Shown here: positions 1,388 to 43,058 of the stretch, piece after piece | How positions within the stretch are numbered: position 1 is the stretch's first letter | Layout: every line of letters starts with the position of its first letter | Origin: Candidatus Woesearchaeota archaeon | Lineage (GTDB): Archaea; Nanobdellota; Nanobdellia; Woesearchaeales; ARS49 | Direction: 5' to 3' | DNA: 64,000 nt | Assembly (NCBI GenBank): GCA_019322895.1 | Contig: JAHWHZ010000001.1 | Coordinates: 266,220-330,219, forward strand | Made by a program: the position numbers and the translations under genes | The notes under the pieces: generated by a model | Told to the model about the DNA's origin: nothing | What the model saw: the letters and a program-made list of their open reading frames with translations, nothing else | Database searches by the model: none

Positions 1388-1468
1388 ACAATTTATTCAA
1401 TTATTCAGATTAACAATTAAAAGAATACTTCTTAAAGGGTTTTAAAAGGAGGGGGTTTTTATAGAAAG

Positions 1469-2422
1469 TTATTTTATTTTTTTTATTCCTGATTCAATTA
1501 GTATTGGTTTTCCTTCTGGTGTGTAAACTATTTGTTCAAATGTAAAGAAACATTTTGTTTTTGGGCACATTTTCTGCATGGTAGCTATGCCAAGCCACGC
1601 CTTTCCAGTTTGTTCACCTAATGTGAGGTCATATGTTCTTTTATCAGTATGGATTATGAAACTTTGGTTAGGTTTTTTGTTTGCTAAAATTGTTGTTAAT
1701 TCTTGTGAAGATGTTATGGTTTCTCCATAATCTACTTTAATAATTACTTCCCCAGGAGTTATCCCTGCCATTTCTGCCGGCGAGTTTGGCTGAACTTGTA
1801 TTATTTGAACTCCACACGGCTCTTGCGGGCAGGATTGCACAAATAAAGCGCTTAATAATGCAACAAAAAGAACAAAGTATATCATTCGGGCTATTCCATT
1901 AAGAAATATTAGATAAAGTATTGCAATTAATACATCTCTTTTGTTTCTTTTAAAGCGTTTTTGGAATAAGTGTTTATAGATATTAACAGTTGAACATACA
2001 AGCAAATGTGTTGAATAAAAAGCAACAAATACTCCTATTAGTGCAGTTACTATATAAAACAGACCATACAAGAAATTAATATTTAATATGCTTAATATAT
2101 CTGAAAAATCTGTTTTTAGCTTAAAAACAGCCCACCATACAGTAGATATAGCAAACAAAATAAGGACTGCTATTAATCTATTTTTAGTAAATTTATGAAA
2201 TTCTTTAGAGGTATATCTATAAATCAAATAATAGATAAAAATAAGTAATATGTAGAATACAAATGCGCCGATATGCCACATATTAGGGATTACTGCTGTT
2301 TTTATCGGAAGTAATGATCCTGCGATATCCATGAAGCTAATTTTATGTTTAAGATATTTAAAGCTTTGGAAATTTAAAATATTCCCAATTCCTAAGAGAG
2401 ATAAAACTATCTCAGAACCCAA
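1469..2422 (-). CDS. Polytopic membrane protein with C-terminal PDZ domain
   Basis: 317-aa ORF with about 6 hydrophobic helices, then a PDZ-like segment (GITPGEVIIKVDYGETITSSQEL...). No HExxH motif. Track start is TTG at 2422; the first ATG is at 2332. Confidence 0.5.
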   Translation of the reverse strand: MGSEIVLSLLGIGNILNFQSFKYLKHKISFMDIAGSLLPIKTAVIPNMWHIGAFVFYILLIFIYYLIYRYTSKEFHKFTKNRLIAVLILFAISTVWWAVFKLKTDFSDILSILNINFLYGLFYIVTALIGVFVAFYSTHLLVCSTVNIYKHLFQKRFKRNKRDVLIAILYLIFLNGIARMIYFVLFVALLSALFVQSCPQEPCGVQIIQVQPNSPAEMAGITPGEVIIKVDYGETITSSQELTTILANKKPNQSFIIHTDKRTYDLTLGEQTGKAWLGIATMQKMCPKTKCFFTFEQIVYTPEGKPILIESGIKKIK

Positions 2423-2454
2423 CCTTTTTAAACCCGGATTCTATTTAACATAAT

Positions 2455-3216
2455 ATGACACTATACTTCATAGGACTTGGATTAAATGACGAGAAAGACA
2501 TCACAGTAAAAGGTCTTAATCTTGTCAAGAAAGCAGATGTTGTCTATCTAGATAACTACACTGCTGTCCTTAACTGTCCTGTCAGCTATCTTGAGAAGCA
2601 ATATGAAAAGAAAATCATTCTTGCAGACAGGGATATGGTTGAGAAGAATCCTGAGAAAACAATATTAAAAGATGCAAAAGACAAGAATGTTGCTTTTCTT
2701 GTTGTCGGCGATCCTTTTGGAGCAACAACACATATGGATTTGTTGATGCGTGCAAAAAAAGCAGGAATCAAGACTCAGATTGTCCATAATGCCTCAATAA
2801 TCTCTGCTGTCGGAGTCACAGGATTGCAGGTTTACAAGTTTGGCAAGACAACAAGCATCCCGTTTCCTGAAAAAGGCTTTGAGCCAGAAACTCCTTATGA
2901 TGCAATTAAAGAGAATCAAAAGATCTGCCTGCATACATTATTGCTTCTGGACTTAAGGCCTAAAGAAAACAAGTTCATGACAATCAATGATGCAATAAAC
3001 ACTCTCTTGAAGATTGAGCTCAAAAGAAACGAGAAAGTCTTTACAAGAGACACTTTCTGCATCGGTTGTGCAAAGATTGGCTCTCTTGACCAAAAAATTA
3101 AAGCAGGAAAAGCTTCTGAGTTAATGAAAGCTGATTTTGGCCCTGGCCTGCACTGCCTGATTGTTCCAGGAAAGCTGCATTTTGCTGAGGAAGACGTTGT
3201 TAATCGGTTCTATTAA
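2455..3216 (+). CDS. dphB: Diphthine synthase (DphB, EF-2 diphthamide biosynthesis methyltransferase)
   Basis: N-terminus MTLYFIGLGLNDEKDITVKGL... matches the archaeal/eukaryotic diphthine synthase family. A TATA-like cctttttaaac lies about 25 nt upstream, suggesting a leaderless transcript. Confidence 0.85.
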   Translation: MTLYFIGLGLNDEKDITVKGLNLVKKADVVYLDNYTAVLNCPVSYLEKQYEKKIILADRDMVEKNPEKTILKDAKDKNVAFLVVGDPFGATTHMDLLMRAKKAGIKTQIVHNASIISAVGVTGLQVYKFGKTTSIPFPEKGFEPETPYDAIKENQKICLHTLLLLDLRPKENKFMTINDAINTLLKIELKRNEKVFTRDTFCIGCAKIGSLDQKIKAGKASELMKADFGPGLHCLIVPGKLHFAEEDVVNRFY

Positions 3217-4072
3217 ACTTTAAGCGATATAATCTTTTTCGAAAAAGCATCGCCTCTTTCTTATCTTTAAACGAATAGGATAATTTATTATTTTTTAAAA
3301 ATCGCAGGAGTTTATTGCAAAGAAATTTTTTAGTAAAACCTTTATTTACCGCGCCTTTATCTGAAATTTTAACGTTGGTAATGGGGCCCATAGCAGCAAT
3401 TTTTTGAACATCTTTAATTTTAGAAATTTCAATGCCTTGAAATATGCTCCAATTACGTTTATCCTGTTTTATTCTTGCGGATAAACCTAAGGATAAACAT
3501 AATCTTCTCATATCTGAAACTACAGACGGGTTTGTTTCAGCAATGCGAAATTCTGCTTCAAATTGTACTTGGTAGTATTGATACGTTTTATTTTTCTTTT
3601 TGTCTTTTTTTGACTTTAACTTAAATGTATAACAAAGACTGCCGCCAAAATCAAATAAAATCCTTAAAGCAAGTTGTTTTATAATAACTGATTCATCTAA
3701 TAAAAAAGACAAGGTAGGTTGCGGATTCTTGAGGTATTCGGATTTAGTCTGCAGTCCGGGGGTGGTTTTATAAGTGGGAGATAATGTCAATAACTCTTCT
3801 AGAGCATTTGCTGAATGCAATGTAGAAACAATAATTTTTTTATTGTCGCGCAAATAAACATAAAGCTTAGGTGTTTTATTAAATAAAGCCACACACAAAT
3901 ATTTAAACAGTAAATGCTGTTGTTTATTTCCAACTGTTAACAAGCGGATATATCTCTTTTTTGTATCCATGTATCCTTCAGCCAGAACAATAACTGCAAG
4001 TAATTTTAATTTCTGTACACGGCTCAACTTACTAAACTGTTTTAACATCATATTAAACAGCATACTGCTCAC
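3200..4072 (-). CDS. Free-standing LAGLIDADG-family homing endonuclease-like protein
   Basis: Two LAGLIDADG-like motifs: LLAVIVLAEGYMD and LALRILFDFGGSL. It lies between dphB and a tRNA gene and overlaps the dphB 3' end by 17 nt. Track start is GTG at 4072; the first ATG is at 4063. Confidence 0.55.
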   Translation of the reverse strand: MSSMLFNMMLKQFSKLSRVQKLKLLAVIVLAEGYMDTKKRYIRLLTVGNKQQHLLFKYLCVALFNKTPKLYVYLRDNKKIIVSTLHSANALEELLTLSPTYKTTPGLQTKSEYLKNPQPTLSFLLDESVIIKQLALRILFDFGGSLCYTFKLKSKKDKKKNKTYQYYQVQFEAEFRIAETNPSVVSDMRRLCLSLGLSARIKQDKRNWSIFQGIEISKIKDVQKIAAMGPITNVKISDKGAVNKGFTKKFLCNKLLRFLKNNKLSYSFKDKKEAMLFRKRLYRLKFNRTD

Positions 4073-4161
4073 ACATATTTAAATTTTACGGCGGTTCGAA
4101 AATTTTCCGAAAAGCTTAAAAGATACGGCCAGATTAGCCAATATTACGAGAATCAAGCAAC

Positions 4162-4267
4162 AGCCCTGTAGTGTAGTGGCCAATCATCGCGCACTTTGGA
4201 TGCGTGGACGGCGGAAAAGACACAGATTTGCTCTGTTCTTTGCCGATTTCGAATCCGCCCAGGGCTA
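4162..4267 (+). tRNA. tRNA-Gln (anticodon UUG) with a ~33-nt non-canonical intron in the T-arm (about 4215-4247)
   Basis: Acceptor stem AGCCCTG/CAGGGCT. D-arm GTGTAGTGGCCAATCATC is typical of archaeal tRNA-Gln. Anticodon stem GCGCA/TGCGT with loop CTTTGGA. T-stem GGCGG..CCGCC with T-loop TTCGAAT, interrupted by a 33-nt insert between the 5' T-stem and T-loop. Confidence 0.7.
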
Positions 4268-4300
4268 TTGATTCTCTAATATAAAACTGATTAATAGTCT

Positions 4301-4317
4301 GAATCCGCCCGGGCTAT
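4301..4317 (+). repeat. Direct duplicate of the tRNA-Gln 3' end (gaatccgcccgggctat), 33 nt downstream of the intact tRNA
   Basis: 17 of 18 nt identical to tRNA positions 4251-4268. This att-like partial tRNA duplication abuts the selU stop codon. Confidence 0.6.
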
Positions 4318-42941: not shown

Positions 42942-43058
42942 GGGGACGTAGTATAACCTGGCTATTATTTCCGGCTCCAGTCATGGAGCGATGAGCCGCA
43001 AGGCAATGATTACTATGGAAGATACCGGACGATCGGGGTTCAAATCCCTGCGTCCCCA
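42942..43058 (+). tRNA. tRNA-Trp (anticodon CCA) with a 43-nt intron at the canonical 37/38 position (about 42981-43023)
   Basis: Acceptor GGGGACG/CGTCCCC; anticodon stem TCCGG/CCGGA with loop CTCCAG|intron|A; T-arm CGGGG TTCAAAT CCCTG. The intron contains GATGA and TGAT motifs. Confidence 0.7.

What the first reader, a model, noticed from the sequence alone, without database searches (positions are those of the whole stretch)
3200..4072. Free-standing LAGLIDADG homing-endonuclease-like gene wedged between dphB and an intron-containing tRNA
The ORF carries two LAGLIDADG-like motifs (LAVIVLAEGYMD; LRILFDFGGSL). It is not embedded in an intron or intein, overlaps the dphB 3' end by 17 nt, and faces the tRNA-Gln. 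Free-standing homing endonuclease genes are rare in archaea. It could be a domesticated endonuclease or the remnant of a mobile intron/intein event connected to the neighbouring tRNA anomalies.
Basis: partly seen in the sequence, partly recalled or inferred. Interest (0 to 1): 0.55.

Follow-up and report, generated by a model that had tools for sequence, protein, structure and literature searches.

The report
Homing endonuclease gene tied to tRNA-Gln
This is a real free-standing LAGLIDADG homing-endonuclease gene from a family found only in tiny DPANN archaea, and in every genome examined it sits right beside a tRNA-Gln gene that usually carries odd introns, which suggests that selfish nucleases help reshape archaeal tRNA genes.

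Summary
The ORF at 3200-4072 (-) is real. It folds as a two-domain LAGLIDADG endonuclease (AlphaFold pLDDT 91; every top PDB match is a LAGLIDADG enzyme), although its own Pfam score falls below threshold. It lies in neither an intron nor an intein.

New here: in all 32 distinct loci with enough flank, the gene abuts a tRNA-Gln gene while the other neighbours differ. That tRNA carries 0-3 introns at seven positions, and 47 of 51 have a correct bulge-helix-bulge splice motif. Relatives at 28-34% identity abut intron-bearing tRNA-Ile, initiator tRNA-Met and tRNA-Arg genes.

Four close relatives share the window's gene order but differ in the interval between dphB and the rhodanese gene:
- an intron-less tRNA-Gln alone;
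- a two-intron tRNA-Gln alone;
- an unrelated LAGLIDADG gene plus tRNA-Gln;
- this gene plus tRNA-Gln (the window).

So the gene is a mobile insertion, not a housekeeping gene.

Both catalytic acids are conserved across the superfamily. The window copy has Gly in place of the second Asp, so it is probably crippled. A conserved T-arm-like motif (TTCGAAC...) lies against the gene's TATA box.

Best reading: a homing endonuclease that targets tRNA-Gln loci. The target site and any protective role of the introns are inferred, not shown.

The parts
3200..4072 (-). LAGLIDADG endonuclease ORF (290 aa from the GTG; probable true start is the ATG at 4051, giving 283 aa). Two alpha-beta-beta-alpha-beta-beta-alpha domains (residues 18-97 and 129-228) plus a conserved C-terminal extension (about 229-286).
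3965..4000 (-). LAGLIDADG motif 1 (residues 25-36, LAVIVLAEGYMD). The catalytic acid is E32 (codon 3977-3979).
   Evidence: D or E at this column in 103 of 103 superfamily sequences
3635..3667 (-). LAGLIDADG motif 2 (residues 136-146, LRILFDFGGSL). G143 (codon GGC, 3644-3646) replaces the catalytic Asp/Glu.
   Evidence: D or E in 105 of 109 sequences; only the window protein (and its identical copy P0001), P0038 and P0066 lack it; the 88%-identical P0002 has FDFDGS
4076..4083 (-). TATA box (TTTAAATA) of the endonuclease gene, 24 nt upstream of the ATG at 4051 (a leaderless-type promoter).
   Evidence: read from the sequence; position conserved across 25 loci
4088..4100 (+). ACGGCGGTTCGAA: an uninterrupted copy of tRNA-Gln positions about 47-59 (end of the variable loop, 5' strand of the T-stem, first six bases of the T-loop). 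It spans the 53/54 intron site. It is the family-wide conserved promoter-proximal motif TT(C/T)GAAC-N5, a candidate operator or half target site.
4162..4214 (+). tRNA-Gln(UUG) exon 1 (positions 1-53).
4215..4247 (+). 33-nt bulge-helix-bulge intron at the non-canonical position 53/54 (T-stem/T-loop junction). The central helix CGGC/GCCG has 4 of 4 pairs, the inner helix has 5 bp and the outer helix 2 bp.
   Evidence: the same intron with 1 mismatch occurs in relative L065, which has no endonuclease gene
4248..4267 (+). tRNA-Gln(UUG) exon 2 (positions 54-73).
4300..4316 (+). TGAATCCGCCCGGGCTA: remnant of the 3' end of an older tRNA-Gln of the L065/L061 type (CGAATCCGCCCGGGGCTA). It is still in place next to the stop of the rhodanese gene and begins inside the T-loop.

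Best explanation
The ORF is a free-standing, monomeric two-domain LAGLIDADG homing endonuclease gene. It belongs to an uncharacterised family confined to Woesearchaeota/Nanoarchaeota (DPANN) genomes, and that family lives immediately beside tRNA-Gln genes.

Shown:
- the fold;
- retention of both catalytic acids across the family;
- obligatory linkage to tRNA-Gln, and of more distant relatives to tRNA-Ile, initiator tRNA-Met and tRNA-Arg;
- presence or absence of the gene, and replacement by an unrelated LAGLIDADG gene, at the same chromosomal site in close relatives;
- mosaic tRNA-Gln alleles that differ in intron content;
- left-over tRNA fragments.

Inferred mechanism:
- The enzyme cuts tRNA-Gln loci that lack it, most likely in the nearly palindromic T-arm DNA (T-stem, TTCGAAT, T-stem).
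- Repair from a locus that carries the gene copies in the endonuclease gene together with its linked tRNA-Gln allele.
- A bulge-helix-bulge intron at 53/54, or sequence change, splits or alters the site in the linked allele and so protects it. The host splicing enzyme removes the intron from the RNA. This is the phage 'collaborative homing' logic.
- The conserved T-arm-like half-site against the BRE/TATA of the gene's own promoter would let the protein bind without cutting and repress itself.

The window's copy has Gly for the second catalytic Asp. It is therefore probably a nickase or a dead enzyme in the decay phase of the homing-endonuclease life cycle.
For: Fold
- AlphaFold2 on the 12-sequence alignment gives pLDDT 91 and pTM 0.87, with two alpha-beta-beta-alpha-beta-beta-alpha units.
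- Foldseek against the PDB: all top hits are LAGLIDADG enzymes, for example I-Tsp061I at 1.8e-7 and I-DmoI with TM up to 0.67.
- Pfam LAGLIDADG_3 matches 10 of 12 family members.

Catalysis
- The motif-1 acid is present in 103 of 103 and the motif-2 acid in 105 of 109 phmmer-collected relatives.

Linkage to tRNA genes
- A tRNA-Gln was found by spliced alignment next to the ORF in all 32 distinct loci with flank (scores 63-106, against 33-54 on the wrong strand). Other neighbours differ.
- 47 of 51 introns have a bulge-helix-bulge motif in the correct register.
- Distant relatives sit next to tRNA-Ile, tRNA-Met and tRNA-Arg genes with introns.

Mobility
- L061, L062 and L065 share the window's synteny. 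Flank identity to L061 is 87-96% at the nucleotide level, and homology breaks exactly at window 3201 and 4317.
- The interval holds four different states.
- L065 keeps the same T-arm intron without any endonuclease gene, so the protein is not needed for that tRNA.
- An old tRNA 3' end remains at 4300-4316, and it starts inside the T-loop.

Promoter motif
- TT(C/T)GAAC sits at a fixed distance from the TATA box in 25 loci while the flanks are unconserved.
- Its T-stem part matches the local tRNA in 68 of 120 positions, against 57.9 in shuffles; 314 of 100000 shuffles reach the observed value.
- The match is exact over 13 nt in the window and is unique there.

Precedents
- SegB, a free-standing endonuclease gene in the T4 tRNA gene cluster (PMC2330249).
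- Collaborative or trans homing (PMC2790892, PMC6083498).
- I-TevI autorepression (reviewed in PMC2988022).
Against: - No cleavage site is known, so the T-arm target is an inference.
- Only 14 of the 27 intron-bearing tRNA-Gln genes analysed have the 53/54 intron. Three loci (L030, L044, L056) have intron-less tRNA-Gln next to the gene, and in L030 the ORF looks intact. An intron is therefore not required for coexistence.
- The promoter motif matches the local T-stem only partly. The excess over shuffles ignores relatedness among loci. The trend for a better match where the T-arm intron is present is weak (3.25 against 2.42 of 5; one-sided p 0.054).
- Within clades the gene and its arrangement look vertically inherited, so transfer may be rare.
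- Homology for repair across divergent genomes would be limited to the 73-nt tRNA.
- The window copy lacks a catalytic residue.
- No member was found on viral contigs.
Confidence: 0.6

Rival explanations
1. It is a selfish but essentially inert relic. LAGLIDADG genes land next to tRNA genes simply because those sites tolerate insertions or are general recombination hot spots. The enzyme's target, if any, lies elsewhere, and the tRNA introns and the T-arm-like motif are unrelated to it.
For: - The window copy has lost a catalytic Asp.
- Truncated copies exist (L019, L022, L011).
- An unrelated LAGLIDADG gene occupies the same site in L061.
- A second indel (window 1388-2453) lies nearby.
- Intron-less tRNA-Gln coexists with the gene in L030, L044 and L056.
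Against: - 32 of 32 linkage to one tRNA species, rather than to tRNAs in general, and of sister clades to other specific tRNAs, is hard to get from a generic hot spot.
- Both catalytic acids are kept in about 96-100% of relatives.
- The promoter motif is conserved at a fixed spacing while the proteins have diverged to 41-47% identity.
Confidence: 0.2
2. It is a domesticated LAGLIDADG protein that serves tRNA-Gln. It would be either a WhiA-like DNA-binding regulator of the divergent tRNA promoter, or a maturase-like RNA chaperone that helps fold and splice the multi-intron pre-tRNA.
For: - Tight, long-lived linkage to tRNA-Gln.
- A conserved motif in the shared intergenic region.
- WhiA appears among the structural matches (8dy9_I, 2.0e-5).
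- Distant relatives carry helix-turn-helix domains.
- The window copy lacks one catalytic residue.
Against: - Close relatives L065 and L062 keep the tRNA-Gln at the same site with no LAGLIDADG gene, and L065 even keeps the same T-arm intron.
- The catalytic acids are under strong conservation, unlike in WhiA.
- In 10 loci the motif and ORF lie about 1 kb from the tRNA promoter, because the tRNA is downstream on the same strand.
- The distribution is patchy: 13 species-representative genomes in the collection scanned.
Confidence: 0.12
3. It is a remnant of an intron-encoded or intein-encoded endonuclease that was left behind when the intron or intein was lost.
For: - All characterised archaeal LAGLIDADG enzymes are encoded in rRNA introns or inteins (background knowledge; the structural hits I-Tsp061I, I-DmoI and the Tli VMA intein are of these kinds).
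- tRNA fragments flank some copies (L004, L015, L044, L027, L057).
Against: - In none of 32 core loci or 5 distant loci does the ORF lie between tRNA exons.
- No Hint/intein domain is found by Pfam.
- The gene has its own TATA promoter.
- The introns next to it are 12-40 nt long and have no ORF.
Confidence: 0.05
4. It is cargo of an integrase-type mobile element or provirus that integrates into the tRNA-Gln gene, as in the Sugahara model of tRNA disruption.
For: - tRNA 3' end remnants resemble att-site repeats (window 4300-4316; L062; L044).
- In locus L001 a primase-type gene (Toprim_2/PriCT_2) lies nearby.
- The published model of intron gain by integration is PMC3293823.
Against: - The variable interval in the window is only about 1.1 kb and holds nothing but the endonuclease gene and the tRNA.
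- No integrase appears in any neighbourhood table.
- There are no hits on viral contigs.
Confidence: 0.03

Closest known systems
Archaeal intron-encoded monomeric LAGLIDADG homing endonucleases (I-DmoI, I-Tsp061I, I-PorI)
   Same: Same fold: two fused LAGLIDADG domains with an acidic residue at the end of each interface helix. These are the best structural matches. Both kinds occur in archaea that splice bulge-helix-bulge introns.
   Different: Those genes sit inside rRNA introns. This one is free-standing with its own promoter, lies beside (not inside) a tRNA gene, and has long Lys-rich beta-hairpins and a 60-residue conserved C-terminal extension. Sequence similarity is too low for a PDB sequence hit.
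Phage T4 SegB and other free-standing phage homing endonucleases (Seg and Mob proteins)
   Same: A free-standing endonuclease gene placed among or next to tRNA genes. In T4 it cuts the tRNA gene region of phages that lack it, so that its own gene and the flanking tRNA genes are inherited preferentially (PMC2330249). Different endonuclease genes can occupy the same intergenic slot in related genomes.
   Different: SegB is a GIY-YIG enzyme in a phage, and homing happens during co-infection. Here the enzyme is LAGLIDADG, the genome is cellular and archaeal, and cleavage has not been shown.
Collaborative or trans homing (F-CphI with the psbA intron; mobE with I-TevIII)
   Same: A free-standing endonuclease gene lies next to a gene that carries an ORF-less intron. 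In the known cases the intron interrupts the enzyme's target, so it protects the host allele and travels with the endonuclease gene (PMC6083498, PMC2790892). The window has exactly this layout: endonuclease gene plus an ORF-less T-arm intron.
   Different: The known cases use self-splicing group I introns in phage protein genes. Here the introns are protein-spliced bulge-helix-bulge introns in a tRNA gene, up to three per gene, and half of the loci lack the T-arm intron.
I-TevI autorepression
   Same: A homing endonuclease binds an operator in its own promoter that resembles its homing site but is not cut (reviewed in PMC2988022). Here a 13-nt copy of the uninterrupted T-arm lies against the gene's BRE/TATA.
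   Different: Binding has not been tested here, and the motif could instead be a junction scar kept for other reasons.
WhiA (bacterial LAGLIDADG-derived transcription factor)
   Same: A free-standing LAGLIDADG-fold protein; it is a structural match (8dy9_I).
   Different: WhiA has lost the catalytic residues, carries a C-terminal helix-turn-helix and is universally conserved in its lineage. This family keeps its catalytic residues and is present or absent among close relatives.

Membership tests
LAGLIDADG homing endonucleases (monomeric, two-domain) | Two alpha-beta-beta-alpha-beta-beta-alpha domains packed through the two LAGLIDADG helices | tested here: met
   AlphaFold2 pLDDT 91, pTM 0.87; secondary-structure order H18-32 E E H E E H and H129-143 E E H E E H. 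69 PDB matches at E <= 0.001, and the 50 listed are LAGLIDADG-fold proteins.
LAGLIDADG homing endonucleases (monomeric, two-domain) | Significant match to a LAGLIDADG sequence profile | tested here: inconclusive
   The window protein scores 17.4 bits on LAGLIDADG_3, E 0.0053, below the 22.5-bit cut-off. At family level 10 of 12 members match, best 2.1e-6.
LAGLIDADG homing endonucleases (monomeric, two-domain) | A catalytic Asp/Glu at the C-terminal end of each LAGLIDADG helix | tested here: not met
   Window protein: E32 is present, but position 143 is Gly (FDFGGS). The family as a whole meets the criterion: 103 of 103 and 105 of 109. The window copy is therefore a family member by descent but probably not a full double-strand nuclease.
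LAGLIDADG homing endonucleases (monomeric, two-domain) | Site-specific cleavage of a long (about 18-22 bp) target, leaving 4-nt 3' overhangs | not testable with these tools
   Needs purified protein and DNA substrates.
LAGLIDADG homing endonucleases (monomeric, two-domain) | Mobility: the gene is present or absent at the same site in otherwise collinear relatives | tested here: met
   The window and L061, L062 and L065 share flanks. The interval holds this gene, an unrelated LAGLIDADG gene, or none.
Collaborative homing (free-standing endonuclease plus ORF-less intron) | A free-standing endonuclease gene adjacent to a gene that carries an intron without an ORF | tested here: met
   Window: the ORF start lies about 90-110 nt from a tRNA-Gln with a 33-nt intron. 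27 of the 30 tRNA-Gln genes resolved well enough to map introns have at least one intron.
Collaborative homing (free-standing endonuclease plus ORF-less intron) | The endonuclease target spans the intron insertion site of the intron-less allele, and the intron-bearing allele is resistant | not testable with these tools
   Indirect evidence only. The promoter motif is an uninterrupted copy of the sequence across the 53/54 site. Against: half the loci lack that intron.
Intron-encoded archaeal endonucleases (I-DmoI type) | The ORF lies inside a bulge-helix-bulge intron of an RNA gene | tested here: not met
   The ORF is outside the tRNA in all loci, and the introns are 12-40 nt long.
Intein-associated endonucleases | Flanking Hint splicing domains within a host protein | tested here: not met
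   Pfam finds no other domain, and 290 aa is filled by the LAGLIDADG core plus a short tail.
WhiA-like domesticated LAGLIDADG regulators | Catalytic residues lost family-wide, universal vertical inheritance, and an attached helix-turn-helix | tested here: not met
   The acids are conserved, the gene is present or absent among relatives, and the core family has no helix-turn-helix.

The most novel reading that the evidence does not exclude
Free-standing LAGLIDADG endonucleases of DPANN archaea form 'nuclease plus resistant tRNA' modules. Each clade would attack the ordinary gene for one tRNA species (Gln, Ile, initiator Met, Arg). It would spread together with a linked allele made resistant by non-canonical bulge-helix-bulge introns or by sequence change. 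This would be a natural cleave-and-rescue drive on an essential gene. It would make homing endonucleases a direct driver of the gain, spread and positional diversity of archaeal tRNA introns, of tRNA gene replacement and of left-over tRNA fragments. That is a mechanism long sought for 'disrupted' tRNA genes, which have so far been attributed only to integrase-type elements.
Probability: 0.3. Interest if true: 0.85.

Novelty: new variant of a known kind. Interest (0 to 1): 0.72.

Why it matters
How archaeal tRNA genes acquire introns at non-canonical positions, and why some lineages carry so many, is an open question. Current ideas invoke integrase-bearing plasmids and viruses, or protection against them (PMC3293823). 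I found no report in the searched literature of a nuclease family dedicated to tRNA genes in archaea.

A family of free-standing homing endonucleases that always travels with one tRNA gene offers a concrete, testable driver. At a single locus in sister strains, the endonuclease gene and two different introns are each present or absent. The natural substrates are in hand: intron-less, one-intron and two-intron alleles of the same tRNA-Gln.

There are two practical consequences:
- These tRNA genes are invisible to default tRNA finders, so DPANN tRNA sets are under-called.
- The family is a source of new compact meganuclease scaffolds with unusually long DNA-contact hairpins.

Tried and rejected
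- Default ARAGORN and Rfam at gathering threshold found no tRNA at all in the window. Rfam in E-value mode found only tRNA-Trp. The tRNA-Gln had to be recovered with my own spliced alignment and a check of the bulge-helix-bulge register.
- NCBIfam gave nothing useful. PDB sequence searches with the single protein and with the family profile gave only noise.
- A scan of viral contigs found no relative.
- I first thought that in same-strand loci the ORF might lie inside the tRNA gene, because of a 5' tRNA fragment upstream in L004 and L015. The spliced alignment showed a complete tRNA downstream whose 5' end overlaps the ORF's 3' end, so the upstream pieces are extra fragments, not exons.
- A general search for duplicated tRNA ends around all loci found them only in a minority (L004, L015, L019, L044, plus the window and L062 by eye). 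Flanking repeats are therefore not a constant feature.
- The idea that the T-arm intron is universal in loci with the gene was rejected: 14 of the 27 intron-bearing tRNAs have it, and three further loci have no intron at all.
- Protein phylogeny against arrangement gave only partial structure, because the deep branches are star-like.
- Conserved synteny at 41-47% protein identity does not exist. It became informative only with relatives chosen through the neighbouring dphB gene.
Full report
**1. The observation**

- The ORF 3200..4072 (-) exists. It overlaps the 3' end of a diphthine-synthase-type gene (2455..3216, +) by 17 nt.
- An identical protein is deposited as a hypothetical protein of a Candidatus Woesearchaeota MAG (P0001, 283 aa).
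- That shorter start (ATG at 4051) is the likely real one. A TATA box (TTTAAATA on the minus strand, 4076-4083) lies 24 nt upstream of it and only 3 nt from the GTG (position conserved in relatives).
- The gene faces a tRNA-Gln(UUG) gene at 4162-4267. That gene carries a 33-nt intron (4215-4247) between positions 53 and 54, at the T-stem/T-loop junction.
- Default ARAGORN and Rfam miss this tRNA. A spliced alignment recovers it (score 105.6, against 41.6 on the other strand), and ARAGORN accepts the spliced product as tRNA-Gln.
- The intron has a textbook bulge-helix-bulge motif: central helix CGGC/GCCG with 4 of 4 pairs, a 5-bp inner helix and a 2-bp outer helix.

**2. What the protein is**

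- On its own it scores below Pfam's threshold (LAGLIDADG_3, 17.4 bits, E 0.0053). It has no PDB sequence match.
- It has about 20 full-length relatives at 41-48% identity and about 100 clusters at E < 1e-3. Ten of 12 aligned members hit LAGLIDADG_3, best 2.1e-6.
- The AlphaFold2 model from the family alignment is confident (pLDDT 91, pTM 0.87). It shows two alpha-beta-beta-alpha-beta-beta-alpha domains (residues 18-97 and 129-228) plus a conserved C-terminal extension.
- Foldseek against the PDB returns only LAGLIDADG-fold proteins at the top: I-Tsp061I (1.8e-7), I-AniI, I-OnuI, I-DmoI (TM up to 0.67), intein endonucleases and WhiA.
- In an unbiased phmmer set, the acidic residue of motif 1 is D or E in 103 of 103 sequences, and that of motif 2 in 105 of 109.
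- The window protein is one of the few exceptions. It reads FDFGGS (Gly143, codon GGC at 3644-3646) where even its 88%-identical relative P0002 has FDFDGS.
- The family therefore looks like an active nuclease family, and the window copy looks catalytically crippled.

**3. Linkage to tRNA-Gln**

- At 41-47% protein identity the neighbouring protein genes differ completely between loci.
- I collected 13 loci from species-representative genomes, all Woesearchaeota, Nanoarchaeia or unclassified archaeal MAGs with one copy each. I added 27 from metagenomes and several through exact-protein look-ups. None came from viral contigs.
- Spliced alignment to an archaeal tRNA-Gln consensus finds a tRNA-Gln directly next to the ORF in all 32 distinct loci with enough flank. 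Three further loci are cut too short to tell.
- There are three layouts:
  - In 21 loci, including the window, a tRNA-Gln(UUG) lies on the opposite strand with its 5' end about 90 nt from the ORF start.
  - In 10 loci the tRNA (CUG in 7, UUG in 3) lies on the same strand with its 5' end abutting or overlapping the ORF's 3' end.
  - In 1 locus (L044) the tRNA lies upstream on the same strand.
- These tRNA genes carry 0-3 insertions, after mature nucleotides 10, 15, 22, 26, 38 (the canonical site), 53 (T-arm) and 60. In 47 of 51 cases there is a central helix of 3-4 bp in the exact bulge-helix-bulge register plus an outer helix. They are therefore genuine archaeal introns.
- Relatives at only 28-34% identity show the same habit with other tRNAs:
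  - tRNA-Ile (L023, L027, L057; L057 again has a 53/54 intron);
  - a three-intron initiator-type tRNA-Met (L024);
  - a probable tRNA-Arg(UCU) next to a helix-turn-helix-LAGLIDADG fusion (L059).

**4. Presence or absence in close relatives**

- Using the neighbouring dphB protein, I found relatives at 88-94% identity and read their loci.
- All share the order DNA ligase, nitroreductase, FtsZ, dphB, [X], rhodanese/SelU-type gene, NUDIX.
- Against the closest relative (L061) the flanks are 87-96% identical at the nucleotide level. Homology stops at window 3201 and resumes at 4317. Only the tRNA exons match in between.
- The interval X has four states:

| Locus | LAGLIDADG gene | tRNA-Gln |
|---|---|---|
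| Window | this family's gene | T-arm intron only |
| L061 | an unrelated gene (237 aa; Pfam 1.6e-9; BLASTP against the window protein E 0.06; both catalytic Asp present), same place and orientation | intron after nucleotide 10; uninterrupted T-arm |
| L065 | none | both introns; its T-arm intron differs from the window's at 1 of 33 nt |
| L062 | none | intron-less, with a different acceptor and T-stem, plus a remnant of an older 3' end |

- Spliced, the L061 and L065 tRNAs are identical. The window's tRNA differs from them only by a compensated acceptor pair.
- The window's 4300-4316 sequence (TGAATCCGCCCGGGCTA) is the in-place remnant of an L065-type 3' end. It begins inside the T-loop.
- This is the pattern expected of a homing-endonuclease hot spot. 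It also shows that the protein is dispensable for expressing or splicing that tRNA.

**5. The promoter motif**

- In 25 loci, TT(C/T)GAAC followed by a T-stem-like pentamer lies at a fixed 10-12 nt upstream of the TATA box. The sequence on either side is unconserved.
- On the tRNA's strand it reads as tRNA positions about 47-59. That is the uninterrupted sequence across the 53/54 intron site.
- In the window it matches the local tRNA exactly over 13 nt (4088-4100) and is unique in 64 kb.
- Across 24 loci the T-stem part matches the local tRNA in 68 of 120 positions, against 57.9 for shuffled pairings; 314 of 100000 shuffles reach 68. Relatedness among loci inflates this figure.
- In the distant locus L027 the same place holds a longer tRNA 3' fragment (T-arm, acceptor strand and CCA) directly against the TATA box.
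- I read the motif as a retained half target site that may act as an operator, by analogy with I-TevI. It could instead be a junction scar.

**6. Mechanism**

Shown:
- a mobile, free-standing LAGLIDADG gene family bound to specific tRNA genes;
- allele mosaics, intron polymorphism and tRNA remnants at the site.

Inferred:
- The enzyme cuts tRNA-Gln loci that lack it, most plausibly in the nearly palindromic T-arm DNA.
- Repair copies in the endonuclease gene with its linked tRNA allele.
- Introns or sequence changes in that allele give resistance.

Points against a simple version of this model:
- Only about half of the loci have the T-arm intron.
- Three loci have intron-less tRNAs next to the gene.
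- Clades look vertically inherited.
- The trend for a better motif-to-tRNA match where the intron is present is weak (p 0.054).

**7. Comparison with what is known**

- The fold and chemistry are those of archaeal monomeric LAGLIDADG enzymes, but all characterised ones are encoded in rRNA introns or inteins.
- The lifestyle is closest to phage free-standing endonucleases: SegB in the T4 tRNA cluster (PMC2330249) and collaborative homing with ORF-less introns (PMC6083498, PMC2790892).
- Published models for disruption of archaeal tRNA genes invoke integrase-bearing elements (PMC3293823).
- Searches of the held literature found no description of LAGLIDADG genes tied to tRNA genes in DPANN archaea.
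- I rate it a new variant of a known kind.

**8. Verdict**

- The 'domesticated' and 'intron or intein remnant' readings are not supported.
- The suspected link to the tRNA is real, general and the interesting part.

Noticed in passing
window 42942-43058 (+): The only other tRNA in the 64-kb window is a tRNA-Trp(CCA) with a 43-nt intron. Default ARAGORN and Rfam at gathering threshold both missed it, although it scores 44 bits (cut-off 29) in Rfam's E-value mode. tRNA sets of such genomes are probably under-called.
   Followed up: partly
window 1388-2453 (ORF 1469-2422, minus strand): A second insertion/deletion lies next to the first. A 317-aa membrane protein with a PDZ domain sits between FtsZ and dphB in the window. 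It is absent in relatives L061 and L062 (only 39 nt there) and is replaced by an NTPase_I-T gene in L065.
   Followed up: partly
L061:4755-5468 (minus strand): An unrelated LAGLIDADG gene (237 aa, GIILGDGS and LFDTDGS motifs intact) occupies exactly the same slot between dphB and tRNA-Gln, in the same orientation, in the closest relative. There the tRNA has an intron after nucleotide 10 but no T-arm intron. This hints that each endonuclease may pair with its own intron.
   Followed up: partly
L022:6556-6900 and L018:7012-7200: Further multi-intron tRNA genes follow the endonuclease-linked tRNA-Gln. One is a tandem tRNA-Gln(UUG)-tRNA-Gln(CUG) pair in L022. Heavy intron load may therefore be a wider trait of these lineages.
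   Followed up: no
L001:142-3681: In one family locus a 1179-aa primase-type protein (Toprim_2, PriCT_2) and several small unknown ORFs lie just upstream, which suggests an integrated plasmid or virus nearby.
   Followed up: no
proteins P0042-P0117: More distant relatives (350-510 aa) carry N-terminal helix-turn-helix domains (HTH_3, HTH_17, HTH_23, HTH_58) fused to the LAGLIDADG core. The one locus checked (L059) also abuts a multi-intron tRNA.
   Followed up: partly
L062:4880-4960: The relative with an intron-less tRNA-Gln and no endonuclease gene still carries a duplicated tRNA 3' end (GCGCGGGACTA) 55 nt downstream. A 152-aa unknown ORF follows, with a weak Exo5-like Pfam hit. This is evidence of an earlier replacement event at the same site.
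   Followed up: no
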